The notes under the pieces: generated by a model
Told to the model about the DNA's origin: nothing
Seen by the model: only the letters and a program-made list of their open reading frames with translations
Database searches by the model: none
Position numbers and translations under genes: made by a program
Part shown: positions 16,386 to 40,504 of the stretch, piece after piece
Layout of the letters: every line of letters begins with the position of its first letter
Numbering within the stretch: position 1 is the stretch's first letter
DNA from: a virus
Lineage: Duplodnaviria > Caudoviricetes
Virus record (IMG/VR): IMGVR_UViG_3300036987_000310
Coordinates: 192,001-256,000 of that record
DNA: 64,000 nucleotides
Direction: 5' to 3' (one strand)

Positions 16386-16410
16386 GTACTCGCGACCCTG
16401 CGCGATCTGC
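16386..16410 (-). promoter_or_regulatory. promoter-like motif GCAGAT-N13-GAGTAC
   Basis: upstream of 15617..16345. Confidence 0.65.
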
Positions 16411-16419: not shown

Positions 16420-16881
16420 TCACGCCGACATGACTTTTTGAACTAAGAGATTTTCCTTCGCTTGCTCAGTTTGCTCCTTTGTTGCAAACTTATGGACAAT
16501 TTTCTTTAAATTGAACTTTTTCGTTCTGAGAACCGTCAGATCTGCTCCGTGTTCTAGGAGCAGTTTGCACACTTCAAAGTGCCCTGCTCGTGCAACACAC
16601 CGGAGCGCCCAATCATCATCTGCATGAACGTTCGCTCCGTGTTCTAGAAGCAGTTTGCACACTTCCAAGTGCTTACCCTTTGCAGCATATTGAAGTGCCC
16701 AGTCATCATTTGCATGAACGTTCGCCCCGTTTTCTAGAAACAATCTGCACACTTCTAAGTGCCCCCATGCTGCAGCATACTGGAGCGCCAAATCGTTTTT
16801 CGCGTGAACATCTGCTCCGTGTTCCAAGAGCAGTTTGCACGTCTCTAGATACCCAAGTTTTGCAGCTTTGGTCAGATCCAT
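16420..16881 (-). CDS. ankyrin-repeat protein (4 repeats) with conserved tail and C-terminal tag
   Basis: ALQYAA..GHLEVCKLLLEHGA repeats; ends LLVQKVMSA*. Confidence 0.95.
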   Translation of the reverse strand: MDLTKAAKLGYLETCKLLLEHGADVHAKNDLALQYAAAWGHLEVCRLFLENGANVHANDDWALQYAAKGKHLEVCKLLLEHGANVHADDDWALRCVARAGHFEVCKLLLEHGADLTVLRTKKFNLKKIVHKFATKEQTEQAKENLLVQKVMSA

Positions 16882-16890
16882 CCAGTCACC

Positions 16891-17262
16891 TCATGCGCTC
16901 ATGACTTTTTGAATGGAAAGAGTTTTTCTTGCTTGCTCAATTTGTTCTTTCGTTGCAAATTCTTTGACAGTTTTCATTAAATTGAACTTTTTCGTTCTGA
17001 AAACTGTCAAATCTGCTCCGTATTCTAGGAGCAGTTTGCACACTTCCGTGTGTCTTTCTGACGTAGCACACCGGAGCGCATAATTGTTGTCTGCATGAAC
17101 GTTCGCTCCATTTTCCAAGAGCAATTTGCACACTTCCAAGTGCCCATTCCGTGCAGCATGCTGAAGCGCCCAGTCTTTATTTGCGTGAACGTTTGCCCCG
17201 TTTTCTAGGAGCAATTTGCACACTTCCAAGTGCCTATGTGCTGCAGCTTTGATCAGATCCAT
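16891..17262 (-). CDS. ankyrin-repeat protein (3 repeats) with C-terminal tag
   Basis: same repeat consensus; ends LSIQKVMSA*. Confidence 0.95.
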   Translation of the reverse strand: MDLIKAAAHRHLEVCKLLLENGANVHANKDWALQHAARNGHLEVCKLLLENGANVHADNNYALRCATSERHTEVCKLLLEYGADLTVFRTKKFNLMKTVKEFATKEQIEQARKTLSIQKVMSA

Positions 17263-17271
17263 CCAGTCACC

Positions 17272-17913
17272 TCAAGTGTTCATGACTTTTTGAACGGAAA
17301 GTTCACTTTTTGCTTGCTCAGTTTGCTCTTTCGTTGCAAATTTATTAACGACCTTTTTCAAATTGAACTTTTTCGTTCTGAAAATTGTCAGATTTGCTCC
17401 GTTTTCCAAAAGCAGTTTGCACACTTCAAAGTGTCCGTTTGACGCAGCGTATCGGAGCACATAATCGTTATCTACATGAATGTCTGCTCCGTTTTCCAGA
17501 AGCAGTTTGCACACTTCCAGATGCCCATTCCGTGCAGCATACTGGAGTGCATAATTGTTATCTACATGAATGTCTGCTCCATGTTCTAGGAGCAATTTGC
17601 ACACTTCTGGGTGCCCGTTTGACGCAGCGCGTCGGAGCGACCAGTCATTACCTACATGAACGTTCGCCCCATGTTCTAGGAACAATTTGCACACTTCCAA
17701 GTGCCCATTTAACGCAGCAATTTGAAGCGCCCAGTCATCATCTGCATGAATGTCTGCTCCGTGTTCCAAGAGCAATTTGCACACTTCCAGATGCCCATTC
17801 CGTGCAGCTTGTTGGAGCGCCCAGTCACTGTGTGCGTGAATGTCTGCTCCGTTCTCTAGGAACAGTTTGCACACTTCCAAGTGCCCATTCTGTGCGGCTT
17901 CGATCAGACCCAT
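17272..17913 (-). CDS. ankyrin-repeat protein (6 repeats) with C-terminal tag
   Basis: ends LSVQKVMNT*. Confidence 0.95.
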   Translation of the reverse strand: MGLIEAAQNGHLEVCKLFLENGADIHAHSDWALQQAARNGHLEVCKLLLEHGADIHADDDWALQIAALNGHLEVCKLFLEHGANVHVGNDWSLRRAASNGHPEVCKLLLEHGADIHVDNNYALQYAARNGHLEVCKLLLENGADIHVDNDYVLRYAASNGHFEVCKLLLENGANLTIFRTKKFNLKKVVNKFATKEQTEQAKSELSVQKVMNT

Positions 17914-17933
17914 CCAGTCACCTCCGCGATCGA

Positions 17934-17958
17934 ATACTCGCGATCGGCGCTGGCTTGC
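17934..17958 (-). promoter_or_regulatory. promoter-like motif GCAAGC-N13-GAGTAT
   Basis: heads the ankyrin triplet; followed by GGAGGTGA. Confidence 0.7.
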
Positions 17959-17983
17959 GTTTTATTGTGAACGGAATGATGAA

Positions 17984-18346
17984 CTACGCGCGGTTGCCGA
18001 AGTTCTCGCGCGCGTCGTCGACGTGGTCGTCGTTGGTGTTGGCGCCGTTGGTGTTGGCGCCATAGTCTCGCGTCCCCGCTCCGGGCCGTTGGCGCCGTTG
18101 CCTCATGTTGTCCGCGGGCCTTGGGGCGCCTACTGACCTGGCCGGTCGCATGTGCACGTACACGGGCGAGCCTTCTGTGTCCTCGTCCGGAATCGGACAA
18201 GAGCAATGCAGTTCCATCATTCCGAGCGGGATGGTGAAGTCAAGCATTTCGACGCCGCTTTGAGCGACTCTCAGCTTTGCTTGAAGCACCACTTGATTGA
18301 CGTTGGCGTACTTGTTTGGCGGGCCGCTTTTCTCAAAATTGTTCAT
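17984..18346 (-). CDS. hypothetical protein with low-complexity acidic C-terminus
   Basis: GAGGA SD; GANTN duplication. Confidence 0.65.
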   Translation of the reverse strand: MNNFEKSGPPNKYANVNQVVLQAKLRVAQSGVEMLDFTIPLGMMELHCSCPIPDEDTEGSPVYVHMRPARSVGAPRPADNMRQRRQRPGAGTRDYGANTNGANTNDDHVDDARENFGNRA

Positions 18347-18370
18347 TGAATCCTCTAACGAATTGTTGCT

Positions 18371-18754
18371 TTATTCCAACTGAATTTTTCCGACGTATCC
18401 TTCTTTATCGAGAGCCTCCGGAGTTGGTCGGCCGAGTTGTAGGCCGATGATTTCTGTCAGCACCATCGCATCATCGTCGCTTGTCAGGCGCAATTTTTCT
18501 CTGACGTATGAAGGGCTCAGAAATCCGTTTTTCGCGGTGAAAATTGCCGAGCCGCTGAGGACCCCATCGCCCAACAGAGACACCACCCATGAATTTTCTT
18601 GGCACCCAAGAAGTTTGCAAGCGGAGGCGGGGACCCTGGCGAATGACATGACGTACCTCGTTCCATTCCCTGGCTGGTACTCCATTATTTTACAATACGG
18701 AGCCGGATCGTCGACAATCCATTTTATGGCTTCTTGTATTTCTTTGGTTCTCAT
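18371..18754 (-). CDS. hypothetical protein
   Basis: GAGGTGA SD, 127 aa. Confidence 0.7.
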   Translation of the reverse strand: MRTKEIQEAIKWIVDDPAPYCKIMEYQPGNGTRYVMSFARVPASACKLLGCQENSWVVSLLGDGVLSGSAIFTAKNGFLSPSYVREKLRLTSDDDAMVLTEIIGLQLGRPTPEALDKEGYVGKIQLE

Positions 18755-18766
18755 TTCGTCACCTCT

Positions 18767-18997
18767 TTAAAAGTCGTGAATTTCCAAAGCCATCGACTGA
18801 AACGTCAGCCAGGCGTCGCGGTCCACCTCGTGCGGGTGCGGCGCGTTCCAACATTTGTCGCACCACGTCAGCAAGTACAGGGCGCCGGGCTCGATTTCCG
18901 CCGTCCAGTGCGTCGCTTTCCCACGGCAGGTGTCGCACTCGTCCGACCTGATTGCAATCATCGCCTTGACCTCGCCATTGTCAGTTCTGACAATCAT
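18767..18997 (-). CDS. small zinc-finger protein (family A) with C-terminal tag
   Basis: CDTC..KATHW...CDKCW...EVDRDAW...ALEIHDF*. Confidence 0.75.
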   Translation of the reverse strand: MIVRTDNGEVKAMIAIRSDECDTCRGKATHWTAEIEPGALYLLTWCDKCWNAPHPHEVDRDAWLTFQSMALEIHDF

Positions 18998-19284
18998 GTT
19001 TCGTGCACTTCTTTGAGCAAGACGTCTGGATGCGCAACTTCAGCCCAATACAATTTCGTGAGCTCGTCGAGATCCTTCCGACACTTGAACTCGCTGCTGT
19101 GAATCAATGAAATTAGCGTCACAATTCCGCCGCGAGTCTGCCCGGCAATTTTGACACAAGCCTCCCTGGTGTGCCAGTATTGATCCCAGCTATGTTTGAC
19201 TAGCCCGGCTTTCAAAATGCAAGCGGCCAGAGCGGGCAAGTTTCTCCGTGCTTCTTCAATCAGGGCATCATCGGCGTCGTTCAT
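18994..19284 (-). CDS. hypothetical protein with C-terminal tag
   Basis: ATGA-coupled; ends VLLKEVHET*. Confidence 0.75.
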   Translation of the reverse strand: MNDADDALIEEARRNLPALAACILKAGLVKHSWDQYWHTREACVKIAGQTRGGIVTLISLIHSSEFKCRKDLDELTKLYWAEVAHPDVLLKEVHET

Positions 19285-19613
19285 TTCTTTCCCTTCTTGG
19301 CCAGTTCTCTCATGTGGGCTCGTGCTGCCTTGACGCAGGCTCCCCACACCTTCAGAGCGTCGTCCTCGTTGTCGGCGTACACGTAGTGTCGGAATTCTTC
19401 CGTGTCCCCGTATCCCGAAAACACTGACTTGTCAGACGGGCAACGCATCGCCATGCCAAACCCGAATTCGACGGCGGAATTCGTATCGTTATCGCCGAAA
19501 GTCGTCATTCCGGCATATCCCGGATGTTGGTCGAGGTATTCCCACTCGTTGCTTCCTAGTTTCTCAACGGCCGCGTCAAGCTTTTTCGAATAGTTGATTT
19601 CGCCCCGTTTCAT
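19281..19613 (-). CDS. hypothetical protein
   Basis: 110 aa, coupled. Confidence 0.65.
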   Translation of the reverse strand: MKRGEINYSKKLDAAVEKLGSNEWEYLDQHPGYAGMTTFGDNDTNSAVEFGFGMAMRCPSDKSVFSGYGDTEEFRHYVYADNEDDALKVWGACVKAARAHMRELAKKGKK

Positions 19614-20038
19614 TTCTCGTGAACTCCTTCCACGATCGACTCGCGGATTAGCTGGAATAGCTGGTTTTTCGTAAGTCCTCTGTCCATTAGGTCCGCGGCA
19701 GCCTTCTTGAAAGCTTCTTCCTTCTTTGTGCGCACTCGGCGCAGCAGCGCGCTCCGGCTTTTCTCGGCGCCGCTTTGAATCCTTTTGACAGCTGCTTCGA
19801 GCTCGCGAAGCTGTTGCGGGTCCTGCCGGGCTTTCTCCGCTGTCGAGAGAATCGTGAGAACGAGCTTATTGCTGTCAACGTGACTGGGCGCTGCGTGCTG
19901 CAGCTTGCCCAAAACATCTTCAGCTTTGTCCTCTGGGTAGAGCAGGAGCTTCACTGTGCATTCAGGTTCCAAAACAATTGTCACGCTCACCCTGCTCGAT
20001 CCATCCAGCCAAAGCTTTCCGCTAATCTTGTGCGACAT
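19610..20038 (-). CDS. hypothetical protein with helical-hairpin tail and C-terminal tag
   Basis: ends GLTKNQLFQLIRESIVEGVHEK*. Confidence 0.75.
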   Translation of the reverse strand: MSHKISGKLWLDGSSRVSVTIVLEPECTVKLLLYPEDKAEDVLGKLQHAAPSHVDSNKLVLTILSTAEKARQDPQQLRELEAAVKRIQSGAEKSRSALLRRVRTKKEEAFKKAAADLMDRGLTKNQLFQLIRESIVEGVHEK

Positions 20039-20603
20039 TGCCGGGACTCCTTCTTCCCCTGTCCGATACGCGCACAATCGGCCGAGCTGCGCCGTGATTC
20101 AGGAGTGGCCACCCGCCTTCGAGGTCGTCAATCAGGGATCCGGCTGCCTGCCTGTCGATCATTCTGCTCAGCACGTAGTTTCGATTAAATGGAACGCCAA
20201 AGTACTCGCGCTCGTCCAACCACGTTCCAATTACGCGATCTGGCAGTTGGCGGCGCCGGGCGCAGACCTTTGAGCGCATCGTGACGTCCACCACTTTTCC
20301 ACCGATCTCCAGCCATCCGTGCAGCACCGGCAGCACTGCGTGCACGCAGTATCCCTCCACGTATGTGAATCGAGACTCTGGGTCCATTGTTGCCAAAATT
20401 ATTTGGCTGTTGTAGTAGCATTGCTTGATCGGAAATCTGCCGCGACGCAAAACCCGCATGACATAAGCCGTCTCGTTCTTCGTCAATTCTTGCGACAAAG
20501 TTGGGCGGCCCTCGCGAAGCACGTACCCCTCAAAGGAATCCGGGCGTCCCATCTGGTCGGCCATCCATTTCATTTGCTCGAGATATTGACGCAGCTCATT
20601 CAT
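20022..20603 (-). CDS. transglutaminase/papain-like fold protein (putative Cys-His-Asp triad)
   Basis: QCYYNS...YVEGY...VLHGW...VVDVT. Confidence 0.6.
   Translation of the reverse strand: MNELRQYLEQMKWMADQMGRPDSFEGYVLREGRPTLSQELTKNETAYVMRVLRRGRFPIKQCYYNSQIILATMDPESRFTYVEGYCVHAVLPVLHGWLEIGGKVVDVTMRSKVCARRRQLPDRVIGTWLDEREYFGVPFNRNYVLSRMIDRQAAGSLIDDLEGGWPLLNHGAARPIVRVSDRGRRSPGNVAQD
20066..20090 (-). promoter_or_regulatory. promoter-like motif GCAGCT-N13-GCGTAT
   Basis: upstream of 19610..20038. Confidence 0.7.
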
Positions 20604-20917
20604 GGCCGAAACCACAGTGACGCGACACCCAAATTTTGGGCATTTTCTGACACGAGCAGCGCGTTTCCGAAAGCCACCATGTGCAGCGAGCACTGGGAAC
20701 ATGTGACACGCTTTCCATGGTCCAGCTTCTCGACATTGGCGTTGCACCGGGGACACCGTGCGCCAACTTCTTCCTTGACGATGCAAGACGGGTCGATTCG
20801 GCTTCGAAGCGTGGCGAGCACAACGTATCGATTGCGCGGAAGCCGTTCGACGCAGGAATCGCTGGTCGCAACAAATTTCCCCGGCATGAACGCTGGGGCA
20901 ATTCTGTAATCGTTCAT
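20600..20917 (-). CDS. CxxC/CxxC protein
   Basis: CPRC...CSQC; coupled. Confidence 0.65.
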   Translation of the reverse strand: MNDYRIAPAFMPGKFVATSDSCVERLPRNRYVVLATLRSRIDPSCIVKEEVGARCPRCNANVEKLDHGKRVTCSQCSLHMVAFGNALLVSENAQNLGVASLWFRP

Positions 20918-21477
20918 GATAGCGTGACCTCCGCGACCTGAATCAGGTCCTCTAGCTCTTGCTCAGTTTCGGGAACTGTTTTGTGAGTCAGGAGTTGGCA
21001 CACGAGGCCGAACTTGGACGTTTTCGGCAGCTTGTTGACCAGTTCTTGCACGGACATCGTGCGAGTTGTTCTCAAGTCTTCTATATAGAAGCCTGCAGCT
21101 TGCACCAGCTCTCTGATGGACAACCGTTTTTCGTTGTCCAAAATCAAGTCCCTTGACCTAGACCGGCAAATGAACTCGTTAACCAGCTCTTTCGGGATCG
21201 GGCGCGTTTTAGCACATTTGCGCTCGTACGACATTGCCAGTTTGGCAAGGCTCTCAGTAACGCGACCTCCAAACTTCGGATTCATGCGCCTTTCAAGATA
21301 GCGGCGCACAGCTTCGGTCGGATCGCATTGGGGGCAGTTTGCGACGTGATTTTTGACAATTGGATACAGAATGATGTTGTCCACCATGAACTGACTTACC
21401 GGGCCAGTCTTGTCTGTTTTGAAGTGTCCGTTCTTGCCATGCCCGTCGCCTTTGACTGTGATGACGCAGTCGAACAT
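20914..21477 (-). CDS. hypothetical protein (near-tag ending)
   Basis: CPQC; ends LIQVAEVTLS*. Confidence 0.7.
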   Translation of the reverse strand: MFDCVITVKGDGHGKNGHFKTDKTGPVSQFMVDNIILYPIVKNHVANCPQCDPTEAVRRYLERRMNPKFGGRVTESLAKLAMSYERKCAKTRPIPKELVNEFICRSRSRDLILDNEKRLSIRELVQAAGFYIEDLRTTRTMSVQELVNKLPKTSKFGLVCQLLTHKTVPETEQELEDLIQVAEVTLS

Positions 21478-21497
21478 TCAGTCACCTCCGCCGCCCG

Positions 21498-21522
21498 ATA
21501 CTCGCGATCGCTGCGAGTTTGC
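21498..21522 (-). promoter_or_regulatory. promoter-like motif GCAAAC-N13-GAGTAT
   Basis: followed by GGAGGTGA SD of 20914..21477. Confidence 0.7.
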
Positions 21523-21581
21523 AACTTCATTCAGTCGTCATGGACTTGTGCTTGCACGGCGGCAAGACTCGCTTGAAACCT

Positions 21582-22109
21582 TCAAGCCTCCTGCACCGAT
21601 TTGATGAGCTTGACCCGGTCACGATATAGCGAATCGTGTTGCAGTTCGTACCGGATGTCGAGGCACTGGGATAGCTTCGCCCAGAATCGAAGCTTCTGCG
21701 CAGTCTTCCCATTCTTGACCACTTTCCATGTGATGGAATCGTAGTCTTTGTCGTCCTTGAGCGCCGATTTGCTGAAAGCCCTGATGTAGACCCGGTCGCA
21801 TTCGAGCACCAGGCCGGCCGGCAGCGAAACTTGAGCTCGTTTGAGGGATCCGCCATAGCGCTGGCCGGGAGGCGGATCCTCGTACACGCTCCACTGCCTC
21901 GACTCCGGGTCGATCAGTCCGAGAGCCTTAGCAAAGTTGAGGTTTCGCCTCTCGAAATAGAGCGTGAATTCCCAAGGCGCGGCAAGCACGAGCCTGTCGC
22001 CACATGCGGGGATGAACAGCCGCTGCTTGTCAGTCAAGTTGTCGAAGGCCACTGTCAACTTGCTCAGATCAACTGTTGCGGACTTTGCTTCCTTCTTTGC
22101 TTTTGCCAT
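21582..22109 (-). CDS. hypothetical protein with C-terminal tag
   Basis: ends VKLIKSVQEA*. Confidence 0.8.
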   Translation of the reverse strand: MAKAKKEAKSATVDLSKLTVAFDNLTDKQRLFIPACGDRLVLAAPWEFTLYFERRNLNFAKALGLIDPESRQWSVYEDPPPGQRYGGSLKRAQVSLPAGLVLECDRVYIRAFSKSALKDDKDYDSITWKVVKNGKTAQKLRFWAKLSQCLDIRYELQHDSLYRDRVKLIKSVQEA

Positions 22110-22490
22110 TCATGCCTCCATCACGTTTTCCATGATCAATTCGTCCAAGGCTGATTGCAAATCGTCCAAATGCGCGTATGGCTTGCCTTCTCCGAAGGCA
22201 CATGACCCGTCCACGACTCGAAGGTTCTGCCCGAGCTCCAACACCCATACGCGCATTCGGGTCCCCACGTCGTCGTCAATATACTGGGCGCTATCCACCC
22301 ATCTGATGGAAAACTGGTTCTCGCCAACGCGCAGCGGGGTGCCGCTTTTGAACTCGAGGGACCTATCTTGGCGCGACCATCGCCTCAACCGGTTCCAAAG
22401 CCGATTCCACCCTTCCACCACTTCAGGACGGACGCACTCTGGAATCGTGGAAGGCGTGTGATACGGCCGGACGCCAGATCTTTTCCTCAT
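22110..22490 (-). CDS. hypothetical protein with C-terminal tag
   Basis: ends LIMENVMEA*. Confidence 0.75.
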   Translation of the reverse strand: MRKRSGVRPYHTPSTIPECVRPEVVEGWNRLWNRLRRWSRQDRSLEFKSGTPLRVGENQFSIRWVDSAQYIDDDVGTRMRVWVLELGQNLRVVDGSCAFGEGKPYAHLDDLQSALDELIMENVMEA

Positions 22491-22861
22491 GTTTCATGAA
22501 CCTCTCTCACCGAGTTCAGCTCGTCTGCAATCTTGCAAGCTTCAGAATAGCTGTCGGCCTCGTTGACGACAGCGTCGTCGCATTTGACTGTTGTGGACAG
22601 GGCTCGGTACCAACCCGAGGCGTCTTGCAACACAAGCCAGGGCTTGGACGCACGGCGCGGATCCTCGTGTTTGCCATACTGCTTTTTGGTGATGATCAAG
22701 AGTTTTGCCGACCTCACGATTGCCGTCGGCCCAAAACCGTCAAATTTGACGCGACAAATTAAGGATGTCGTGCCTGTGGTTTTGCCCCATCTGTCTTTTG
22801 AGCAAGTGACTGATGCAGACGGGTCTTCTTTCACCAAAAAGACGTATCTCACTCGCATCAC
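22487..22861 (-). CDS. hypothetical protein with C-terminal tag
   Basis: GGAGGTGA SD; ends NSVREVHET*. Confidence 0.75.
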   Translation of the reverse strand: MMRVRYVFLVKEDPSASVTCSKDRWGKTTGTTSLICRVKFDGFGPTAIVRSAKLLIITKKQYGKHEDPRRASKPWLVLQDASGWYRALSTTVKCDDAVVNEADSYSEACKIADELNSVREVHET

Positions 22862-22930
22862 CTCCTCAGTCCAGATGCATGCTCCTATCAGTTGCCCGTT
22901 CGAGTGTCACTTTCACGATTCGAATGATCA

Positions 22931-23227
22931 TCATGCTCCTCGGTTCACTGGCTTCGGCCCAAGCATTGGGCACTCGCCCGGAACATCTTCAGGAATTGGG
23001 GGCGCACGCTGGACGTTGACATGCAGTTCTACCCCATCGCCTTCGTCTTCCATCGTCGTCATGATGCCGTACGTGGAAACCACGTACTCGTTTCCGTTGG
23101 AAAGCATGGTGACTACAATCGAAGCGGAGTGACTGACGCCTTCGGCTTCCTGCTTGTCCATGAATTCCTGAAACCTTCGCGCGAACTTCCACGCTGTGGC
23201 ATCGGCATCGGATCGTGTTTTCCTCAT
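22931..23227 (-). CDS. hypothetical protein
   Basis: GGGAG SD before MRKTRS. Confidence 0.6.
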   Translation of the reverse strand: MRKTRSDADATAWKFARRFQEFMDKQEAEGVSHSASIVVTMLSNGNEYVVSTYGIMTTMEDEGDGVELHVNVQRAPPIPEDVPGECPMLGPKPVNRGA

Positions 23228-23304
23228 TCGTAGCTCCCTTCGCACGCGTGTTGGGTCCAGACCGCGATCGGATACCCACGCGAGTCGCGCAATTCCGCCG
23301 GCCT

Positions 23305-24090
23305 TCAGACCACGTGCTTCCACTTTTGACCACTTCGTATACCGCGAACCAAAGCGTTGCTTACGCCGAAAAGCTCGGCAATTTTTCGTGTTCCGAGACC
23401 AGTCATGCTCCGTATTTGACGAATGTCTTCATCATGAAGTTTTGAACCCCGTCTGTCTGACCCGATGGCATTTTCTAAATATGGAGGTCTGACCCCACGA
23501 GCTTTCGAATTTCTGCTTAGCAGCTCGGCCACACATTCATCGCTGCATACTTTCGTTGGTCTGTTTGAAAACTTAGCAAACTGGGACCCGCACACAACAC
23601 ATGTAGCTGGCTTGGCGGGTATGTACTCGTGCTCTATTCCAGCTTTTACTGCCAAGCCGTGCATGAACTGAGAAGGGACATTCGAGTACAGACCATCGGT
23701 CAGTTTGGACTGAATAAAATAAACGTCATTGTTCTTCGGCGAAACATGAAGAACGAGCACGGGCATTTTCATGGCTTCGACGAACCACATCTTCGTCGCC
23801 ATCTTTTTGGCAACAGCAGAGGTTATCTCAATGAGGAAGCGTTGCCCGTCTCGGCTAGCCACTGCGTCTATCGGGAAACTATGAGAATTTTCTGATAACC
23901 AGAATATGTCGCTGAACCCTTCTTTCGGAAGGATTGTGTGGACAGCACGCTGCTCGACAGTGCGTCCGGCGTTTGTTTTATCGGACGGCGATGCACCAGA
24001 CTGGACAGCATAGCCCCACACTTCTCCGTGCAGCCACCGTTCGAACTTACACCATTTTTTGATTTTGTCGAGTGATTCCGGAGTGCTCAT
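23305..24090 (-). CDS. PD-(D/E)xK-type endonuclease with Zn motif and C-terminal HTH (homing-endonuclease-like)
   Basis: PIDAVASRDGQRFLIEIT; CVVCG...VCSDEC; TRKIAELFGVSNALVRGIRSGQKW. Confidence 0.65.
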   Translation of the reverse strand: MSTPESLDKIKKWCKFERWLHGEVWGYAVQSGASPSDKTNAGRTVEQRAVHTILPKEGFSDIFWLSENSHSFPIDAVASRDGQRFLIEITSAVAKKMATKMWFVEAMKMPVLVLHVSPKNNDVYFIQSKLTDGLYSNVPSQFMHGLAVKAGIEHEYIPAKPATCVVCGSQFAKFSNRPTKVCSDECVAELLSRNSKARGVRPPYLENAIGSDRRGSKLHDEDIRQIRSMTGLGTRKIAELFGVSNALVRGIRSGQKWKHVV

Positions 24091-24113
24091 ATGAGCACTC
24101 CGGTATTAAAGAC

Positions 24114-25328
24114 TCATTCATGATCGCGTGTCGCCACATAGCTCGCACATTTGGGGAGGCCATCGTCCGTCATGTCTGCAAAGCGGTACGTGATGGTCGA
24201 GCCGATCGCCGGAGGGTTCTCCCGATCCTTGGCAGTCAGTCCGGTGCCGACGTTGAAGGTCTTGCCGTTCGGCATCCGAACAATCAGGCCGCCGGTCTTG
24301 CCCTTGTTCGCCTTCTTGCCAGCCTCATGCCCGATGACAACGGCCTCGGCATCCTGAAACGGCTTGAACTTCAACAGAGTGCTGGACCTTCGCGGCTCGT
24401 AGCGGCTTCCCGGCTTGCGAAACATGAGCCCCTCGGCTCCTGCGGCTGCCGCAGCCTTCAAACTGGCCTCTGCCTCTTGGCGGCTCTTGCACTCCGTGTG
24501 CGAATGAGCGTAGGCGTACTTCATGCTGGACATTCCGCAAAGGTGTGTCAGACGCTGCTCGAATCCCCCGGGGAAATTCGGGGCGTCGAACATGACGAAT
24601 CGGACCTGCTCCCAGGCACGGCCGGAACCGGCGCTCTTAACAACCGAGATGGTCTTCTGGAACATCTTGCGGCCCATCCACAACTCCCCGTCGAGAGGCT
24701 CCTGCGGCAGCCCGGCGGTGAAGAATCCGGGCGCGGCGTAGACGTTGCCTTGTCTTGAGATGAACACCTCGCCGTTCCAATAGGCCCGCACGCCGTCGAG
24801 CTTTTCAGACTCCAGCCACCCGGTCGGGTCGAAATCGTCCTCGACCGTGTTCGCCAGAAGTACAGGCGGTCCGAACAAATCGGTCTTTTCGTCCTGGCGG
24901 AGCTTTCGTCCCTTGCGGGCCTCTTCTTCGGCCACGATGGCGGCTTTCTCCTCCTCGGAAAAGGGGATGAACCCGCCAAATTTGTTGACCCGCCGCGCCT
25001 TGTCGCGCGCCGCTGCCCCGCTCTGGCCCGTCGCGGGGTTGCCGCGCGCCTCGCCGGACCGGGCAGCTACCTCGGCCACTGCCGGAGCGGCGAGCACGTC
25101 CGTGCCACCTCCGGACGCCGCAGCTGGCTTGCCTCCAGTGCGGGCATCTTCAACCGCTTGGCCTCGCTGTGCAATGATATGTTTGCACGTGCGAAGATCG
25201 ATTGGTTTGCTCTGTCGGGTCCAGGCCGGGCACGAGCAGCTATATACCTCTCCGCGCCGGAGCAGCTTGTAGGGCTTGGCCCCGGAACCTTGAACATATC
25301 GGATTTCGCCGTCTTGCCAGTCAGACAT
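24114..25328 (-). CDS. lig: ATP-dependent DNA ligase with N-terminal SWIM zinc finger
   Basis: SEKLDGVRA (KxDG), LDGELW, EGLMFRK, LLKFK motifs plus OB fold; N-terminal YSCSCPAW...CKH. Confidence 0.95.
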   Translation of the reverse strand: MSDWQDGEIRYVQGSGAKPYKLLRRGEVYSCSCPAWTRQSKPIDLRTCKHIIAQRGQAVEDARTGGKPAAASGGGTDVLAAPAVAEVAARSGEARGNPATGQSGAAARDKARRVNKFGGFIPFSEEEKAAIVAEEEARKGRKLRQDEKTDLFGPPVLLANTVEDDFDPTGWLESEKLDGVRAYWNGEVFISRQGNVYAAPGFFTAGLPQEPLDGELWMGRKMFQKTISVVKSAGSGRAWEQVRFVMFDAPNFPGGFEQRLTHLCGMSSMKYAYAHSHTECKSRQEAEASLKAAAAAGAEGLMFRKPGSRYEPRRSSTLLKFKPFQDAEAVVIGHEAGKKANKGKTGGLIVRMPNGKTFNVGTGLTAKDRENPPAIGSTITYRFADMTDDGLPKCASYVATRDHE

Positions 25329-25476
25329 TTGTCACCTCATTCGAGTCGTCTTTCGCCTTATTGACGGCGAAAGACGCTGCTTCAAGTTCCTGAGTCAACC
25401 GTTCCTGCCAAGTCTTGCGCAACTCTTTAGACTCTAGGCGTTCATCGGTCAATTCCACGATAGTGCAAGTCTTCAT
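25321..25476 (-). CDS. 51-aa hypothetical protein
   Basis: hand-translated; GAGGTGA SD; overlaps the ligase start. Confidence 0.55.
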   Translation of the reverse strand: MKTCTIVELTDERLESKELRKTWQERLTQELEAASFAVNKAKDDSNEVTNV

Positions 25477-25497
25477 ATTTGTCACCTCTCGCGTCCG

Positions 25498-25522
25498 ATA
25501 CGCGGCGCGCGGCCCGATCGTC
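25498..25522 (-). promoter_or_regulatory. promoter-like motif GACGAT-N13-GCGTAT
   Basis: heads the ligase unit. Confidence 0.6.
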
Positions 25523-25600
25523 GCTCGGCCTCAGGTTGCATGCTCTGTTTGGCAGGATTTCAGGCGTTTGGCGACATCAGACTCGGTACCGAAGAACATC

Positions 25601-25656
25601 AGCGTCATGACCGTCCAGTTCGACACAGAAGCATTGAACTGGACGGTCATGACGCT
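25601..25656. repeat. perfect 21-bp inverted repeat (14-nt loop)
   Basis: AGCGTCATGACCGTCCAGTTC / GAACTGGACGGTCATGACGCT. Confidence 0.9.
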
Positions 25657-26081
25657 TGCACCTCCTCCACTAACTCTTCCAACACCGCCGTGACGGCCAG
25701 CCCCCTGATTTTGGCCACCACATGCGGCGGAAACAGCTCGACATCCCCGATCCACTCCCACAAAACCCTGTGTTGCATCGCGCCCATCAACGCTCCCTGC
25801 GGGTCGCAGAGGAACGTGGGAACATGGACGTCCAGCCCGGCATCATGCAAGAATGGCTCGAGTTTCATGGTGATGTTGATGAATGTTGAGCTGACTGTCG
25901 GGACGCGGTGTGGGGCGAAGAGTAAATGGTTGTCTGTTTCTTTGACTCGCGAAATTTTGAATTTGGCCCGGCTCCAAGCCGAAGCCAAATGTTGGCTCAA
26001 ATAATCTTTTTGAGCTTGATATAAACTGAGCCGGGCGTTGTCGAATTGGTCCTGGATGACCTGGTATTCACGCTTGGTCAT
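25647..26081 (-). CDS. hypothetical protein with C-terminal tag
   Basis: ends ELVEEVQAS*. Confidence 0.75.
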   Translation of the reverse strand: MTKREYQVIQDQFDNARLSLYQAQKDYLSQHLASAWSRAKFKISRVKETDNHLLFAPHRVPTVSSTFINITMKLEPFLHDAGLDVHVPTFLCDPQGALMGAMQHRVLWEWIGDVELFPPHVVAKIRGLAVTAVLEELVEEVQAS

Positions 26082-26443
26082 GACGCTTGCACCCCCATCA
26101 CGAGCAAGTCTGGGCGATGCTCTTGGAGCAGCTTCTCAAGAAGCTCTGCTGGGTCTTCGCGCCAGAACGTCAGGTTCAGATACCCTCCGTTGCCTTTGTG
26201 CCAGGTCACCCAGACGTCCCCGCCTCCGGCAGCTTCCCACCCTTGCAGAAAACATCGGTTTGGGTAGCTCATTTCCCAGTTTTCTGTCTTCTTGGACCAG
26301 GAGTTGTTCTGGTTTGCTCCATCAGAAAACAGTGCCGCCTCGCCCACGATGGAGCGAAACTCGCCGATCTTCTTGAGCCCAGTCGTGCAGAAAATTAGCC
26401 AGACGAGGTCCTGCGCCTTCTTGGAAGCATCGTTCACTTTCAT
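26078..26443 (-). CDS. hypothetical protein with C-terminal tag
   Basis: GGAGGA SD; ends LLVMGVQAS*. Confidence 0.75.
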   Translation of the reverse strand: MKVNDASKKAQDLVWLIFCTTGLKKIGEFRSIVGEAALFSDGANQNNSWSKKTENWEMSYPNRCFLQGWEAAGGGDVWVTWHKGNGGYLNLTFWREDPAELLEKLLQEHRPDLLVMGVQAS

Positions 26444-26447
26444 GTCA

Positions 26448-26678
26448 TTAGTCCTCCAGCTCGGGGTGGTCTTGCAGAAAGAGAGCACCATCGGCGCCAT
26501 ATCCCTCAGCGGAGGCGACTTCAGCGAGATTTCCCGGGAACCCACCTGGGTCGTTCATGAGGTCAGACGCCGAGTATTTTGTGCCGTTGATTACCCACCC
26601 GTAATCGTCCGGGTCTCCGCCGTTTGACCAGCCCACGACACTCGAAAATTCCAATTGTTCCTTCGTGATCTTCGGCAT
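26448..26678 (-). CDS. small acidic protein
   Basis: GAGGTGA SD and promoter motif. Confidence 0.7.
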   Translation of the reverse strand: MPKITKEQLEFSSVVGWSNGGDPDDYGWVINGTKYSASDLMNDPGGFPGNLAEVASAEGYGADGALFLQDHPELED

Positions 26679-26695
26679 TTGTCACCTCTTGGTCG

Positions 26696-26720
26696 GTACG
26701 CGCCGAGCGCGCGGATCTGC
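26696..26720 (-). promoter_or_regulatory. promoter-like motif GCAGAT-N13-GCGTAC
   Basis: upstream of 26448..26678. Confidence 0.7.
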
Positions 26721-26775
26721 GCAGCGCTTCAAAAGGTCTTAAGCTATGCGATACGGGCACATACGTCTTGAAGGA

Positions 26776-27018
26776 TCACTTGGTTTTTTGTTCTAGGTTT
26801 TTTGCTGCTTTAATGCAAGCGGCTGCAATGCGTCGCAATTGTTTGGCACTGAAATACCCGGTGGCGTCGACAGTCATGAACTTGTCGTTGGAGGTTATTG
26901 ATATCGCCACTGTGTCCACAACATCGCTTGAAACTTCATGGCTTGCTTGTTGAAGCGGTTCTCCAATTTCAAAGTTGGCGTGATCGTATGGGTCGCCAGC
27001 CACAGCACGAATTATCAT
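26776..27018 (-). CDS. hypothetical protein
   Basis: AAGGA SD, 80 aa. Confidence 0.55.
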   Translation of the reverse strand: MIIRAVAGDPYDHANFEIGEPLQQASHEVSSDVVDTVAISITSNDKFMTVDATGYFSAKQLRRIAAACIKAAKNLEQKTK

Positions 27019-27108
27019 TTTAACATCCTTCCTTGCACGGAAAATCGATCGCTCGGCTCATTTTGTCACTTTGATCATGACGGAACTCGTGGTGGTATTC
27101 ACGCTTGG

Positions 27109-27411
27109 TTATCTGGTATTTGCGGGCCTTGCGCGATCCCAAACCTGCTGCGTGAGCTTCCTGACTTTGGAGACGGAAGCCTCTTCGAACGATGGAAGCC
27201 AGCTTCCCTCCATCTCGACCGGCTCTGTCGTGTTCACAAACGCGTATGCGTTTCGAACCTCGGCAACGCTTTCTCGGTCGAACTGGACTTCGATCGAAAT
27301 TGGCGTCCTTTTCTTGCCTTCCACCGCTTCGGCTGCCACTTCGTAGCTGGCTACGAAGTGGGCTGATTCTGCTCGAAGCACAATCTTTTTCACCCGAATT
27401 GTTGCCGACAT
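27109..27411 (-). CDS. hypothetical protein
   Basis: GGAGGTGA SD. Confidence 0.7.
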   Translation of the reverse strand: MSATIRVKKIVLRAESAHFVASYEVAAEAVEGKKRTPISIEVQFDRESVAEVRNAYAFVNTTEPVEMEGSWLPSFEEASVSKVRKLTQQVWDRARPANTR

Positions 27412-27431
27412 TCCGTCACCTCCATGACCGA

Positions 27432-27456
27432 ATATGCGAGATCACGCCCGATCGCC
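27432..27456 (-). promoter_or_regulatory. variant promoter-like motif GGCGAT-N13-GCATAT
   Basis: upstream of 27109..27411. Confidence 0.45.
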
Positions 27457-27539
27457 GCTTTACCCTCCCACCCGGTATGTGCGCGATCGGTCGACTGCCA
27501 ACGCGCTCCAGGAGTTATGCACTTTTTAGGCTAAATACC

Positions 27540-28088
27540 TCATGTGCCCATGACTTTTTGAACGGAAAGAATTTTCTTCGCTTGCTCAATCTGCTCTTTC
27601 GTTGCAAATTCCCGAGCTAACCTTTTCAAATTGAAGTTTTCCGTTCTGAGAACCGTTAGGTCTGCCCCGTGTTCTAGGAGCAATTTGCACACTTCAAAAT
27701 TCTCATATTGTGCGGCCCACCGGAGTGAACGATCATTGTGTGCGTGAACGTCTGCCCCATGTTCTAGGAGCAGTTTGCACACTTCCAGGTGCCCATTGTG
27801 CGCAGCACACTCTAACGCATAATCGTCCGCACGAATACCTGCTCCATGTTCTAGGAACAGCTTACATACTTCAAAATGCCCGTTTGATGCAGCAAACTGG
27901 AGCGCCTGATCACCGTCTGCATGAACGTTCGCCCCGTTTTCTAGAAGCAGTTTGCACACTTTAGGGTGTCCGTTTGACGCAGCCCACTGGAGCGCCAAGT
28001 CGTTCTTTGCATGGACGTCCTCCCCGTTCTCTAGAAACAGTTTGCACGCCTCAAAGTCACCAAGTTTTGCGGCTTCGATCAGACCCAT
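27540..28088 (-). CDS. ankyrin-repeat protein (5 repeats) with C-terminal tag
   Basis: start MGLIEAA by homology to paralogs; ends LSVQKVMGT*. Confidence 0.95.
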   Translation of the reverse strand: MGLIEAAKLGDFEACKLFLENGEDVHAKNDLALQWAASNGHPKVCKLLLENGANVHADGDQALQFAASNGHFEVCKLFLEHGAGIRADDYALECAAHNGHLEVCKLLLEHGADVHAHNDRSLRWAAQYENFEVCKLLLEHGADLTVLRTENFNLKRLAREFATKEQIEQAKKILSVQKVMGT

Positions 28089-28098
28089 GGTTTGGCTT

Positions 28099-28539
28099 TC
28101 ACGCTTCTTCCCGAACAGTTTGCACGAGCTCGGAAAGCTTGTTCGCCAGGTCTCTGAGCTCTCCTTCAGGCAATTCCTGCGCAGCCTCGAACAGAGTTTG
28201 CACTCGATCCTTCGGGCGTCGCTCAATTACCTCGAGCGACAACAGCTCCCCGACTTCCGGGTTGAAGGTCCTATACCCGCCTTCGTGGAGCTTCTCCCCC
28301 GTCAGCTTGTCCCGGTTGTAAGCCATGATCGTGAGCACCTTCTGGCCTCGGCGCGTGGTCCACAGGGCTTCCAAGGTCCCCACGTAGTGGCGCCTGTTGC
28401 AGCCTTCCTCGTGAACGGCGCGCTCCGATTCGAGCATTTGCCTGTCTGTTGGCGGCTCCCCGGCCTTGTAAGACACAAAGAGCAAGGAGCCTCGGCCGCA
28501 GTCCCTGAGCTTGTTCACCATCTGGCTCGTTGTCAACAT
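28099..28539 (-). CDS. hypothetical protein
   Basis: promoter motif plus GGAGGTGA. Confidence 0.75.
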   Translation of the reverse strand: MLTTSQMVNKLRDCGRGSLLFVSYKAGEPPTDRQMLESERAVHEEGCNRRHYVGTLEALWTTRRGQKVLTIMAYNRDKLTGEKLHEGGYRTFNPEVGELLSLEVIERRPKDRVQTLFEAAQELPEGELRDLANKLSELVQTVREEA

Positions 28540-28559
28540 TTCGTCACCTCCGCAATCGG

Positions 28560-28584
28560 ATACGCGCGGCAGAGTGCAGGCTTC
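28560..28584 (-). promoter_or_regulatory. promoter-like motif GAAGCC-N13-GCGTAT
   Basis: upstream of 28099..28539. Confidence 0.6.
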
Positions 28585-28592
28585 GCCATCCT

Positions 28593-28775
28593 TCAGTCCA
28601 GATTTACGTCTCTTACCAGGTTTAGATCGTCTGCCAATCGGTAAGCTTCGTTTCTCCGCATGTTCTCGTCAACCAGTTGTTCGTAGCTTCTCAAGCTGTG
28701 TCCGAACCCAAAAACGAGGTATGCCTTCACTCGCGAATCATACACGACCGACCATGCTCCTTGAGTTTCTTTCAT
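28593..28775 (-). CDS. hypothetical protein
   Basis: ATGA-coupled MKETQG...; ends VRDVNLD*. Confidence 0.55.
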   Translation of the reverse strand: MKETQGAWSVVYDSRVKAYLVFGFGHSLRSYEQLVDENMRRNEAYRLADDLNLVRDVNLD

Positions 28776-29119
28776 TCTTGCATGAGGTTTCTGGCTTCGC
28801 CCAAGTTGTGCCACTCTCGAATCTGATATGCCAAGTCTTCTGCTGACAGCTCCTTGCCCAAGAAGACTTGTTGCTCGCAATGGGAAAAGACCGATTCCAG
28901 TCCGCGCGGGTCGATGTTGCTGTCGTCGTTGCAAACTAGAACAGTGTATTCGTCGGTCAGTCCCGGATCCGGCTCATACTCGATGCATTGGGTGACATAC
29001 CACCATTTCCCCCAGAACCATCCAATGAACGCCATGGAGTTGATGCCGGCGTCGTCGCAATCGGTTTCTTCCATGGAGCCCATGGCTCTTTCGCAAGCAT
29101 CGAGAACAACGTCTTTCAT
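28772..29119 (-). CDS. acidic hypothetical protein with C-terminal tag
   Basis: GGAGGTGA SD; ends EARNLMQE*. Confidence 0.7.
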   Translation of the reverse strand: MKDVVLDACERAMGSMEETDCDDAGINSMAFIGWFWGKWWYVTQCIEYEPDPGLTDEYTVLVCNDDSNIDPRGLESVFSHCEQQVFLGKELSAEDLAYQIREWHNLGEARNLMQE

Positions 29120-29145
29120 CCTGGTCACCTCCGATCCCACGCACA

Positions 29146-29619
29146 TTATGCGCTCATGACTTTTTGAACGGCAAGTTCACTTTTCGCTTGCTCAATTTGT
29201 TCTTCTGTCGCAAACTCTTTAACGACCTTTTTCAAATTGAACTTTTTTGTTCTCAGAACTGTTAGGTCTGCCCCGTGTTTTAGGAGCAGTTTGCACACTT
29301 CAAAGTGCCCATGTGTTGCAGCATATTGGAGCGTCCAATCGTCTTCTGCATGAACGTTTGCTCCATGTTCCAGGAGCAGTTTGCACACTTCCAGATGCCC
29401 ATAGCATGCAGCCCGCTGGAGCGCCCAGTCGTTTTCTGCATAGACGTTTGCTCCGTGTTCCAAGAGCAGTTTGCAAATTTCCAAGTGCCCACTGTATGCA
29501 GCATTTTGGAGCGCACGATCGTTCTTTGCATGGACATCCGCCCCGTTTTCCAGGAGCAGTTTGCACACTTCCAGGTGCCCATTCTGTGCGGCTTCGATCA
29601 GGTCATTGTCGTTTCCCAT
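29146..29619 (-). CDS. ankyrin-repeat protein (4 repeats) with C-terminal tag
   Basis: ends LAVQKVMSA*. Confidence 0.95.
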   Translation of the reverse strand: MGNDNDLIEAAQNGHLEVCKLLLENGADVHAKNDRALQNAAYSGHLEICKLLLEHGANVYAENDWALQRAACYGHLEVCKLLLEHGANVHAEDDWTLQYAATHGHFEVCKLLLKHGADLTVLRTKKFNLKKVVKEFATEEQIEQAKSELAVQKVMSA

Positions 29620-31011: not shown

Positions 31012-31051
31012 GCCATTTTTTAGAAGTTTGTGCCTAAACAACTGAGGGGGT

Positions 31052-31076: not shown

Positions 31077-31095
31077 CGGACAGCGGAGGTGTCGC

Positions 31096-37186: not shown

Positions 37187-38722
37187 TTACGGACGGTCAA
37201 TGCGAAGCGGCGCAACCCTACCGAACGCGGGCTTGAACCCCGTGTTGTTGCGCGTAAGCACCCACACCACGTCCATTCCTTTGGGACGCAGCTCGTAGGG
37301 CACCGTGCCGCAGTCGCCGTCCGTCAGGACGACAATCACGTCGAAATCCGTGCCCAGGTGCTTCGGGAAGTCCCGAAAAAACTCGTCGAATACGGTCCCT
37401 CCACGTCCGACCACCTTGGTGCGCTTGAGATCTTCCACCTTTTCCACACGGTGGACCCCCGCCCAGTGGGGAGACGCATCGCAGGGGATGACGTATCCTT
37501 CGGTGTTGTTCCCCAGGACCTGCAGCTGGGAGATTCCGTAAGCCATGTCGTCGTCGCCCATGGACCCTGAGGTGTCGAGCATTGCCAGCCAACGGGGCTT
37601 GTGCATGTAGCGCCGAGGCAGGTACATCTTGGGGTTGGTGCCCAAGAACCGCCGCCTGATGCGCTTCCAATCGTTGTTCAACCCCGCGTCCTGGACCTTC
37701 TTGAGCAGGGCGCTGCGAACGATGTCGGTGAACTTCAGGGTTGGCTTCTTCAACTCGCCGAGCATGCCTTCGATTTCCGACGGCAGACTGCCTCTCATCT
37801 GAGTCGCCTGGTCAGCCGCTCGCATGAGATCTGCCTGGACTTCTTGCTGGGTCATGTCGGTGTCGATGTGAGAATCCATGCCGCCCAGTCGGTCCATGGG
37901 CGACCCACATTTTCCGCATTCATGGCCATGCTCGTGAGGATGCTGTCCGCATCCGCTGCTGGGATTCTGTCCAGGCTGGTTCCCGTCTCCTCCATCCCCG
38001 TCTTCCTCTCCAGGCTGGTCTCCAGGCTGATCCCCAGGGGACTTGCCCTTTTGACCTTGCCCCTGATTGCCCTTTTGCTTCTGGCCGTCTGCGCCCATGG
38101 ACAGGTTTCCGCACTGGGGGCACTTGCGCGGGGACTTGTTCCAGTGGTCGATGATCTCGTCGTAGATGGACTCGGGCGACCGGCCGTGCAGCGACTTGTC
38201 CGCGAAGCAGAACTCCCCTTTCGGAAGCTCCTGCTTGCCGTCGATGAACGACAGGAGGGTGGCGAAGCTCAGGGGCTCCCCGATGTTGCCGCCAAACAGC
38301 TGGCCCTTGCGGTGCGTCTTTTCGTGGTCGGTCCACAGGCACGCGTTGACCACATAGTCCACCGAGATGTTCCACACCTGATGCATCTTCCCCTTGCCTC
38401 GCTTCGGGTGGAAGAAGATGATGTGGTAACCCTCGTGCTGCATGACAGTGGCCAGCTCGTCGGGCGTGAGCTTGTTGAGGAATTCTGGGTTCCAGTAGTA
38501 GGTGCGGCCGTCGGTGGCCGCCGTGTCGATGGGCTGTCCGTGCAGTTCAGTGCACAGCTCGTGCGGCTTGGGCGCCGAGTATGCGAACAAGAATGGGTTT
38601 CCACCGTTCTCCGGCTTGCGGAAAAGCCGGGTCATGCAGGAAGAGACCTTCTCCTGCATGGAGTTGAGCTGGGCGCCGTTGGGCGCCACCTTCCTGGGGT
38701 CCGAGAGTCGTGAACCGATCAT
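37187..38722 (-). CDS. VWA-domain protein with N-terminal HExxH metallopeptidase-like domain (DUF2201-like)
   Basis: TAATDG, HEGYH, MIDAS LDTSGSM, GRGGT, LTDG. Confidence 0.9.
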   Translation of the reverse strand: MIGSRLSDPRKVAPNGAQLNSMQEKVSSCMTRLFRKPENGGNPFLFAYSAPKPHELCTELHGQPIDTAATDGRTYYWNPEFLNKLTPDELATVMQHEGYHIIFFHPKRGKGKMHQVWNISVDYVVNACLWTDHEKTHRKGQLFGGNIGEPLSFATLLSFIDGKQELPKGEFCFADKSLHGRSPESIYDEIIDHWNKSPRKCPQCGNLSMGADGQKQKGNQGQGQKGKSPGDQPGDQPGEEDGDGGDGNQPGQNPSSGCGQHPHEHGHECGKCGSPMDRLGGMDSHIDTDMTQQEVQADLMRAADQATQMRGSLPSEIEGMLGELKKPTLKFTDIVRSALLKKVQDAGLNNDWKRIRRRFLGTNPKMYLPRRYMHKPRWLAMLDTSGSMGDDDMAYGISQLQVLGNNTEGYVIPCDASPHWAGVHRVEKVEDLKRTKVVGRGGTVFDEFFRDFPKHLGTDFDVIVVLTDGDCGTVPYELRPKGMDVVWVLTRNNTGFKPAFGRVAPLRIDRP

Positions 38723-40493: not shown

Positions 40494-40504
40494 TGTGTGC
40501 CTCG

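What the first reader, a model, noticed from the sequence alone, without database searches (positions are those of the whole stretch)
16420..29619. Five ankyrin genes form a natural DARPin-like repertoire with a constant 40-aa tail ending in the tag
Seen: 22 repeats in five genes (4, 3, 6, 5 and 4) keep a near-invariant framework GH(L/F)EVCKL(L/F)LE(H/N)GA(D/N)(V/I)H. Variation is concentrated in the beta-turn and first helix (for example KNDLALQYAAAW, DNNYALRCATSE, HNDRSLRWAAQY). All end in GA(D/N)LT(V/I)(L/F)RT..FNL......FAT(K/E)EQ(I/T)EQA...L.(V/I)QKVM(S/N/G)(A/T). The tandem trio shares identical GGTGACTGG spacers, and the genes look AT-richer than their neighbours. Established: those variable positions form the ankyrin binding face, and poxvirus ANK-PRANC proteins use a variable ANK plus a constant C-terminal adaptor. 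Inference: a recombination-shuffled binder library coupled to the tag reader.
Basis: partly seen in the sequence, partly recalled or inferred. Interest (0 to 1): 0.72.

Follow-up and report, generated by a model that had tools for sequence, protein, structure and literature searches.

The report
Recombining ankyrin binder family, jumbo phage
A 377-kb uncultured phage carries five small ankyrin-repeat proteins that swap repeats, change repeat number and come and go between near-identical strains while keeping a related tail that ends in the phage's common C-terminal tag; what they bind, and what reads the tag, is not shown.

Summary
Observation confirmed: five ankyrin genes (4, 3, 6, 5, 4 repeats of 30 aa), the only ones in this 377-kb phage. 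Shuffling is real. A soil strain carries an A3/A5 mosaic with one whole repeat and the tail exchanged (11 runs against 55 expected, p<1e-5). A coal-sample contig has A3 cut from 6 to 3 repeats at a 33-nt direct repeat. Other strains lack A4/A5 or the trio, or carry further paralogues at sites empty here. A distant relative has its own cluster with the same tail.

Corrections: the tail is 66-79% identical between paralogues, not constant, and only its last ~10 residues are the tag. The identical spacer is the region's ribosome-binding site. Variation at the binding face is generic to ankyrins. Positive selection depends on the model (dN/dS 2.2 or 0.9). No retroelement, no PRANC/F-box homology.

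Best reading: cytoplasmic binders diversified by ordinary recombination, with a non-standard cap carrying the tag; targets and tag reader are inferred only.

The parts
16420..16881 (-). A1: ankyrin gene, 4 repeats plus tail, 153 aa
   Evidence: model pLDDT 96.6
16891..17262 (-). A2: ankyrin gene, 3 repeats plus tail, 123 aa
17272..17913 (-). A3: ankyrin gene, 6 repeats plus tail, 213 aa; 3-repeat and A3/A5 mosaic alleles in other samples
27540..28088 (-). A4: ankyrin gene, 5 repeats plus tail, 182 aa; first gene of a 1355-nt block absent in strain contig L026
29146..29619 (-). A5: ankyrin gene, 4 repeats plus tail, 157 aa; deleted in L026, leaving its first six codons as a scar
16420..16536 (-). 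A1 tail (38 aa): short hairpin and helix, then an 18-residue terminal helix whose last ~10 residues are the tag
16891..17007 (-). A2 tail with tag
17272..17388 (-). A3 tail with tag
27540..27656 (-). A4 tail with tag
29146..29262 (-). A5 tail with tag
16882..16890 (-). 9-nt spacer GGTGACTGG (Shine-Dalgarno plus spacing) before A1
17263..17271 (-). 9-nt spacer GGTGACTGG before A2
17914..17958 (-). Promoter-like intergenic cassette (core GCGAGTAT at 17934-17941) plus the same Shine-Dalgarno spacer, upstream of the trio; function inferred
16386..16393 (-). Second copy of the promoter-like core just downstream of the trio; relatives without the trio have a single copy at this site
17776..17808 (-). 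33-nt exact direct repeat, copy 1 (A3 repeat 2); crossover site of the 270-nt in-frame deletion in L008
17506..17538 (-). 33-nt exact direct repeat, copy 2 (A3 repeat 5)
17475..17595 (-). Stretch of A3 that is replaced by A5-type sequence (A5 29349-29469, same register from the stop) in soil-strain contigs L032/L033
19281..19293 (-). Site empty here; carries a tag-coding remnant, the spacer and a further ankyrin paralogue (B2) in L025
63401..63404 (+). Site empty here; carries paralogue B1 (P0121) in four contigs L010-L013
42511..43617 (-). Context: MoxR-type AAA+ ATPase, candidate tag reader (not shown)
37187..38722 (-). Context: metallopeptidase-vWA (DUF2201) partner of the ATPase

Best explanation
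A young multigene family of small cytoplasmic ankyrin binders in the accessory region of a jumbo phage. Shown: each gene is 3-6 short (30-aa) repeats plus a 38-aa tail; framework and tail are under purifying selection; repeats, tails and whole genes are exchanged, contracted, gained and lost between strains by recombination at short shared stretches. Follows from established knowledge: the variable positions form the ankyrin binding face, so each exchange changes a binding surface while the fold stays. Inferred: (a) the family came recently from an AT-richer member of the same phage clade; (b) the phage's RecA-like protein and microhomology do the shuffling, with no dedicated diversifier; (c) the first ~27 tail residues cap the repeat stack and present a terminal helix; (d) the last ~10 residues dock on the partner that reads the same tag on about 100 other small proteins, most likely the phage's MoxR/vWA-peptidase pair, so that the ankyrins bring host proteins to it or are delivered by it.
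For: Mosaic allele: of 111 sites where A3 and A5 differ, the soil allele follows A3 for 46, A5 for 24 (one full repeat face), A3 for 13, then mostly A5 through the tail; 11 runs against 55 expected, none of 100,000 shuffles as low; the internal tract is in two runs (L032, L033). Contraction: 270-nt in-frame loss at a 33-nt repeat; the same assembly breaks at a 32-nt A4/A5 repeat present twice but runs straight through here, with nothing laid on the skipped part. P0002 has the A1 tail 38/38 but repeats only 20-25/30 like any window repeat. Presence and absence at five sites. dN/dS: framework 0.15-0.29, tail residues 1-27 0.13. Tag: 104 of 526 called genes at the exact offset against 2-7 at most other offsets, 22 at offset 5. 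A 40%-GC relative has at least four ankyrin genes with the same tail and tag. RecA-like gene present. Model: repeats match Mimiviridae short ankyrins at 0.7-0.9 A over 108-114 columns; tail ordered at pLDDT 89-97 in the full protein but about 62 with one repeat only. Face positions are the known specificity positions (PMC1261162).
Against: Face dN/dS falls to 0.87 (p=0.64 against 1) when face codons get their own synonymous rate, and 0.93 at the two fastest sites by pairwise counts. The same positions vary in unrelated 30-aa ankyrins (Spearman 0.58, p=7e-4). The family is dispensable: absent from the region in three ~88-90% relatives and from 10 clade genomes, four of them complete. One allele has lost six N-terminal codons. 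No target is identified. Only about a dozen alleles were seen, all from contigs.
Confidence: 0.55

Rival explanations
1. Near-neutral expansion. One tagged ankyrin gene was acquired, copied in tandem and dispersed; recombination follows from repeat similarity, the face drifts because it is surface, and the copies share one function or add dosage. There is no repertoire.
For: Face dN/dS about 0.9 under the free synonymous model; generic variability profile; frequent loss with scars; absence from most clade genomes.
Against: Every allele seen keeps an open frame, framework and tail; two face positions reach dN/dS 4 and 8 under a shared synonymous rate; a distant relative keeps its own, far more diverged cluster of four.
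Confidence: 0.22
2. The ankyrins are diversified binders that act alone; the tag is a cargo or turnover label (packaging into the virion, export or timed degradation) as on any other tagged protein, and does not act as an adaptor bridge.
For: About 99 non-ankyrin proteins carry the same tag, most too small or unrelated to be adaptors; the ankyrin-specific part of the tail is not shared with them. Iyer et al. propose a virion-assembly role for jumbo-phage MoxR/vWA-peptidase pairs (PMC7824862).
Against: The tag sits on a long terminal helix beyond the binding stack, a layout that would allow target and reader to bind at once. No data on location.
Confidence: 0.2
3. A diversity-generating retroelement or other dedicated mutator rewrites the face codons.
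For: Face codons show more synonymous difference than the second-helix framework.
Against: No RVT_1 reverse transcriptase in the complete genome; no non-coding template copy; near-identical strains differ by long tracts, not scattered adenine changes.
Confidence: 0.03

Closest known systems
Poxvirus ANK/F-box (PRANC, PF09372) proteins (PMC4353913)
   Same: Multi-copy viral ankyrin genes with N-terminal repeats and a shared non-ankyrin C-terminal module proposed to dock on one machine.
   Different: No PRANC or F-box match; tail of 38 aa; prokaryotic virus; the docking end is a tag shared with about 100 non-ankyrin proteins; partner unproven.
Short (30-aa) ankyrin expansions of Mimiviridae, e.g. 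148 copies in Bodo saltans virus (PMC5871332)
   Same: Same short repeat type, best structural matches at 0.7-0.9 A and up to 49% identity; tandem duplication and variable repeat number.
   Different: Here only five copies, in a phage, with a clade-specific tail not found on the giant-virus proteins.
Podospora HNWD WD-repeat receptors (PMC2873952)
   Same: Repeat arrays under concerted evolution, repeat loss and exchange within and between paralogues, novel units from recombination.
   Different: WD not ankyrin; STAND NTPase and effector domains absent here; specificity change shown there, not here.
DARPins (designed ankyrin repeat proteins; positions in PMC1261162)
   Same: Near-constant framework, variation at 33, 13, 14, 26 and the loop; similar size; top PDB matches.
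   Different: Natural; repeats three residues shorter, without TPLH or the full beta-hairpin finger; extra variation at positions 6, 9, 10; non-standard C-terminal end.
PeSL regulatory cassettes of T4-type phages (PMC2839356)
   Same: Dispersed promoter cassettes in accessory regions that bound gene gain and loss; the trio lies between two copies where relatives have one.
   Different: Different motif; the other ankyrin sites have 4-nt microhomology junctions, not cassette junctions.
Ankyphage ANKp (bioRxiv 10.1101/608950)
   Same: Phage-encoded ankyrin protein.
   Different: ANKp modulates eukaryotic immunity in host-associated settings; these proteins have no hydrophobic export signal, come from coal, groundwater and soil samples and form a recombining family.

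Membership tests
Ankyrin repeat proteins (PF00023, PF12796) | Score above curated cut-offs | tested here: met
   All five genes
Ankyrin repeat proteins (PF00023, PF12796) | Stack of helix-turn-helix repeats | tested here: met
   Model pLDDT 96.6; Z 19.4, 1.7 A over 112 residues to AKR2
Canonical 33-aa ankyrin / DARPin module | 33-residue period with TPLH motif and beta-hairpin finger | tested here: not met
   30-aa period, W/Y-A-L-Q/R in place of TPLH
Canonical 33-aa ankyrin / DARPin module | Variation focused on the binding face | tested here: met
   2.19 against 0.58 bits; also true of unrelated controls
Standard ankyrin C-cap | Tail is a capping repeat that continues the stack | tested here: inconclusive
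   No ankyrin family match for the tail; fits of 0.7-1.9 A stop near residue 115 and rise to 3-6 A with the tail; the tail is well modelled only with the stack, so it may still cap it
Poxvirus ANK/PRANC | N-terminal repeats plus shared C-terminal module | tested here: met
Poxvirus ANK/PRANC | C-terminal F-box/PRANC homology | tested here: not met
   Seven tails scanned against Pfam to E=1: no PRANC or F-box
Poxvirus ANK/PRANC | Tail binds a degradation or remodelling machine | not testable with these tools
   Needs pull-downs
Diversity-generating retroelement | Reverse transcriptase | tested here: not met
   0 RVT_1 matches in a complete genome, control rang
Diversity-generating retroelement | Non-coding template repeat | tested here: not met
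   No copy outside the five genes
HNWD-type concerted repeat diversification | Repeat-number variation between isolates | tested here: met
   A3 6 to 3; P0002 3 against A1 4
HNWD-type concerted repeat diversification | Exchange between paralogues | tested here: met
   A3/A5 mosaic
HNWD-type concerted repeat diversification | Positive selection on the binding face | tested here: inconclusive
   dN/dS 2.2 (p 1e-5), 1.7 (p 0.014) or 0.87 (p 0.64) by model
HNWD-type concerted repeat diversification | STAND NTPase and effector domains | tested here: not met
   Proteins are repeats plus tail only
Tagged small proteins of this phage clade | [VI]-x-x-[VI]-[MHQ]-x-x at the exact C-terminus | tested here: met
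   All five, and P0121, P0138, P0139
Ankyphage ANKp | Modulates eukaryotic immune response | not testable with these tools
   Abstract only read; no export signal seen

The most novel reading that the evidence does not exclude
The ankyrins are interchangeable substrate adaptors: the recombining face selects host proteins (for example defence factors) and the tag plugs them into the phage's MoxR/vWA-metallopeptidase machine for remodelling or cleavage, a phage counterpart of poxvirus ANK/F-box adaptors with a natural shuffled binder library.
Probability: 0.22. Interest if true: 0.85.

Novelty: new variant of a known kind. Interest (0 to 1): 0.52.

Why it matters
Recombining repeat-protein families are known from fungi and giant viruses, but my paper searches found none described in a phage, and here the exchanges are caught between near-identical strains. 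These are tagged proteins with a well-understood binding fold, so they offer a direct test of whether the clade-wide tag is an adaptor plug or a cargo label: target and reader can be pulled down from opposite ends of one small protein. If the adaptor reading holds, phages have a programmable route to host-protein remodelling or destruction. If not, this is an ordinary ankyrin expansion with good evidence of concerted evolution.

Tried and rejected
Complex prediction of A1 with two MoxR copies gave no answer (score 0.31, mark 0.32); it is evidence neither way. No RNA holder listed. Tail searches in viral contigs found only generic ankyrin matches; in JGI metagenome contigs none by protein and chance hits by DNA pattern. 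The fold of last repeat plus tail alone was low-confidence (pLDDT 62) and was not searched; the Atlas search of the tail gave scores under 0.9 and TM at most 0.5; no structural match covers the tail cleanly, which does not show a new fold. P0140-P0142 from the representative search are chance repeats. A PHI-like test on the repeats alone was weak (p=0.04), so recombination rests on strain alleles. RecT and ERF were not found. My first promoter regexes were mistyped and redone. The genomes behind L021, L022, L024 are not held, so absence there is shown for the region only. No DNA was served for P0002; its position at the A1 site is inferred from the identical tail and the same 75-nt gap. Rejected: spacer identity as a special element (it is the local ribosome-binding site); retroelement; PRANC membership; 'invariant' tail.
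Full report
Setting. The window is 192001-256000 of a complete 376,674-base virus record with direct terminal repeats. The region holds small, mostly unknown genes, a DNA ligase, a BRCT protein, a MoxR-type ATPase and a metallopeptidase-vWA partner. It is a jumbo phage; the host is unknown. The DNA was laid in coal, soil and wetland samples.

Observation. The five genes, their coordinates, repeat counts (4, 3, 6, 5, 4) and the spacer are as described, and no other ankyrin gene is in the genome. Repeats are 30 residues, lack TPLH and have a loop three residues short. Seven face positions chosen from ankyrin structure have 2.19 bits of entropy against 0.58 for the framework. The genes are AT-richer than their neighbours (GC3 0.44-0.49 against 0.67). 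Three corrections follow. The tail is 66-79% identical between paralogues, like the framework at 76%. The spacer is the region's Shine-Dalgarno cassette, found before 23 genes. The tag is only the last ten or so residues: in 99 non-ankyrin tagged proteins information is confined to positions -10, -7, -4 and -3. The tag itself is real: 104 of 526 called genes have [VI][MHQ] exactly two residues from the end, against 2-7 at most other offsets and 22 at offset 5.

What the repeats are. A model of A1 is confident throughout (pLDDT 96.6). Residues 1-113 superpose on short ankyrins of Mimiviridae at 0.7-0.9 A, better than on DARPins (2.2-2.5 A). Sequence neighbours outside the clade are 30-aa ankyrins without the tail. 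The tail forms a short turn, a small hairpin, a 5-residue helix and an 18-residue terminal helix. It matches no Pfam family, PRANC and F-box included, and among 1.8 billion representatives its profile finds only ankyrin proteins ending in the tag or a near variant, plus chance repeats. It is well modelled only with the stack, which suggests a non-standard cap; this is inference from a model.

Shuffling, shown. (1) Mosaic. In a soil strain about 98% identical to the window, the gene at the A3 site follows A3 for 46 diagnostic sites, A5 for 24 (a tract of at least 121 nt holding one whole repeat face), A3 for 13, then mainly A5 through the tail, all in register from the stop. That is 11 runs against 55 expected, p<1e-5; the internal tract is seen in two runs. 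(2) Contraction. A coal-sample contig otherwise identical to the window lacks 270 nt of A3, in frame, at a 33-nt direct repeat. An assembly collapse is unlikely: the same assembly breaks at a 32-nt repeat shared by A4 and A5, yet passes this one, and nothing lies on the skipped part at depth 12. Reads were not available. (3) Block replacement. P0002 has the A1 tail 38/38 and three repeats unlike any here. Conversely the soil strain's A1 keeps its first repeats (3 differences in 234 nt) but has eight changes in the tail region. (4) Birth and death. The soil strain lacks A4 and A5, the latter leaving a six-codon scar at a 4-nt microhomology, and has paralogues at 19288 and 63404, empty here. The copy at 63404 drags the trio's spacer behind it and the copy at 19288 is preceded by a tag-coding remnant and spacer, so both probably derive from a tandem array (inference). 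Relatives at 88-90% identity have no trio, with one promoter-like cassette where this genome has two flanking it. The genome encodes a RecA-like protein and no reverse transcriptase or template copy.

Selection. Framework dN/dS is 0.15-0.29 and tail residues 1-27 give 0.13, so these are working proteins. The face gives 2.2 (p about 1e-5) if the synonymous rate is shared, 1.7 (p=0.014) on the face block alone, and 0.87 (p=0.64) with its own synonymous rate. Conversion that homogenises the framework would inflate the first figure. The same positions vary in unrelated 30-aa ankyrins (Spearman 0.58), as established for ankyrins in general (PMC1261162).

Distribution and origin. A 40%-GC contig with other tagged genes and homologues of this genome's genes carries at least four ankyrin genes with the same tail, much more diverged. 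Ten clade genomes found through MoxR, four complete, have none (positive control). The family is accessory and patchy; low GC3 and high mutual identity suggest recent gain from an AT-richer relative (inference).

Mechanism. Most likely these are cytoplasmic binders (no hydrophobic export segment) expressed from the region's promoter-like cassettes, whose faces are re-dealt by ordinary recombination while the cap and tag persist. The tag probably engages the partner used by the other tagged proteins. Earlier notes name the MoxR ATPase (e1-5321914); I confirmed the genes exist but not the link. Rivals are near-neutral expansion (0.22), tag as cargo or turnover label (0.2) and a dedicated mutator (0.03).

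Comparison and verdict. It works like HNWD repeat diversification (PMC2873952) and giant-virus ankyrin accordions (PMC5871332), and is laid out like poxvirus ANK/F-box proteins (PMC4353913) without being a member. Searches for ankyrin families in jumbo or huge phages found no description. New variant of a known kind; interest 0.52. The adaptor reading has probability about 0.22 and would deserve 0.85.

Noticed in passing
window 14101-63416, both strands: Promoter-like intergenic motif (G[GC]A[AG][CG], 12-14 nt, [CG]CG[AC]GTA[TC]) followed by GGAGGTGAC; 36 of 94 core matches are intergenic against about 11 expected, most in this region. It resembles ECF-sigma promoters from memory; untested.
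   Followed up: partly
window 45480 (+) and 17941 (-): Two promoter cassettes share an identical 26-nt core-to-RBS stretch on opposite strands.
   Followed up: no
L026:7568-7780; window 28593-28788: Deletion of A5 plus the 124-aa gene fuses A5's first six codons in frame to the next tagged gene, making a new N-terminus.
   Followed up: partly
window 42511-43617 and 37187-38722: MoxR-type ATPase and DUF2201 metallopeptidase-vWA pair, with hundreds of close homologues, separated by mostly tagged small genes.
   Followed up: partly
window 24114-25328 and 31030-31413: ATP-dependent DNA ligase with an N-terminal cysteine/histidine motif, and a stand-alone BRCT protein.
   Followed up: no
window 23305-24090: 261-aa ORF, absent at this site in the soil strain (803-nt skip); looks like a mobile endonuclease gene by its motifs, no Pfam match.
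   Followed up: no
window 40095-41176; L034:2408-2863: Two adjacent tagged paralogues ending in a cysteine/histidine motif, with a homologue beside the ankyrin cluster of the distant relative.
   Followed up: no
P0001, P0003, P0006, P0010, P0012, P0013, P0016, P0017: A widespread metagenomic family with a conserved ~100-aa N-terminal domain of no listed family fused to the same 30-aa ankyrin repeats.
   Followed up: no
L032:1247-1870: The mosaic A3 allele also lacks 18 nt in its first repeat, removing six residues of the N-cap.
   Followed up: partly
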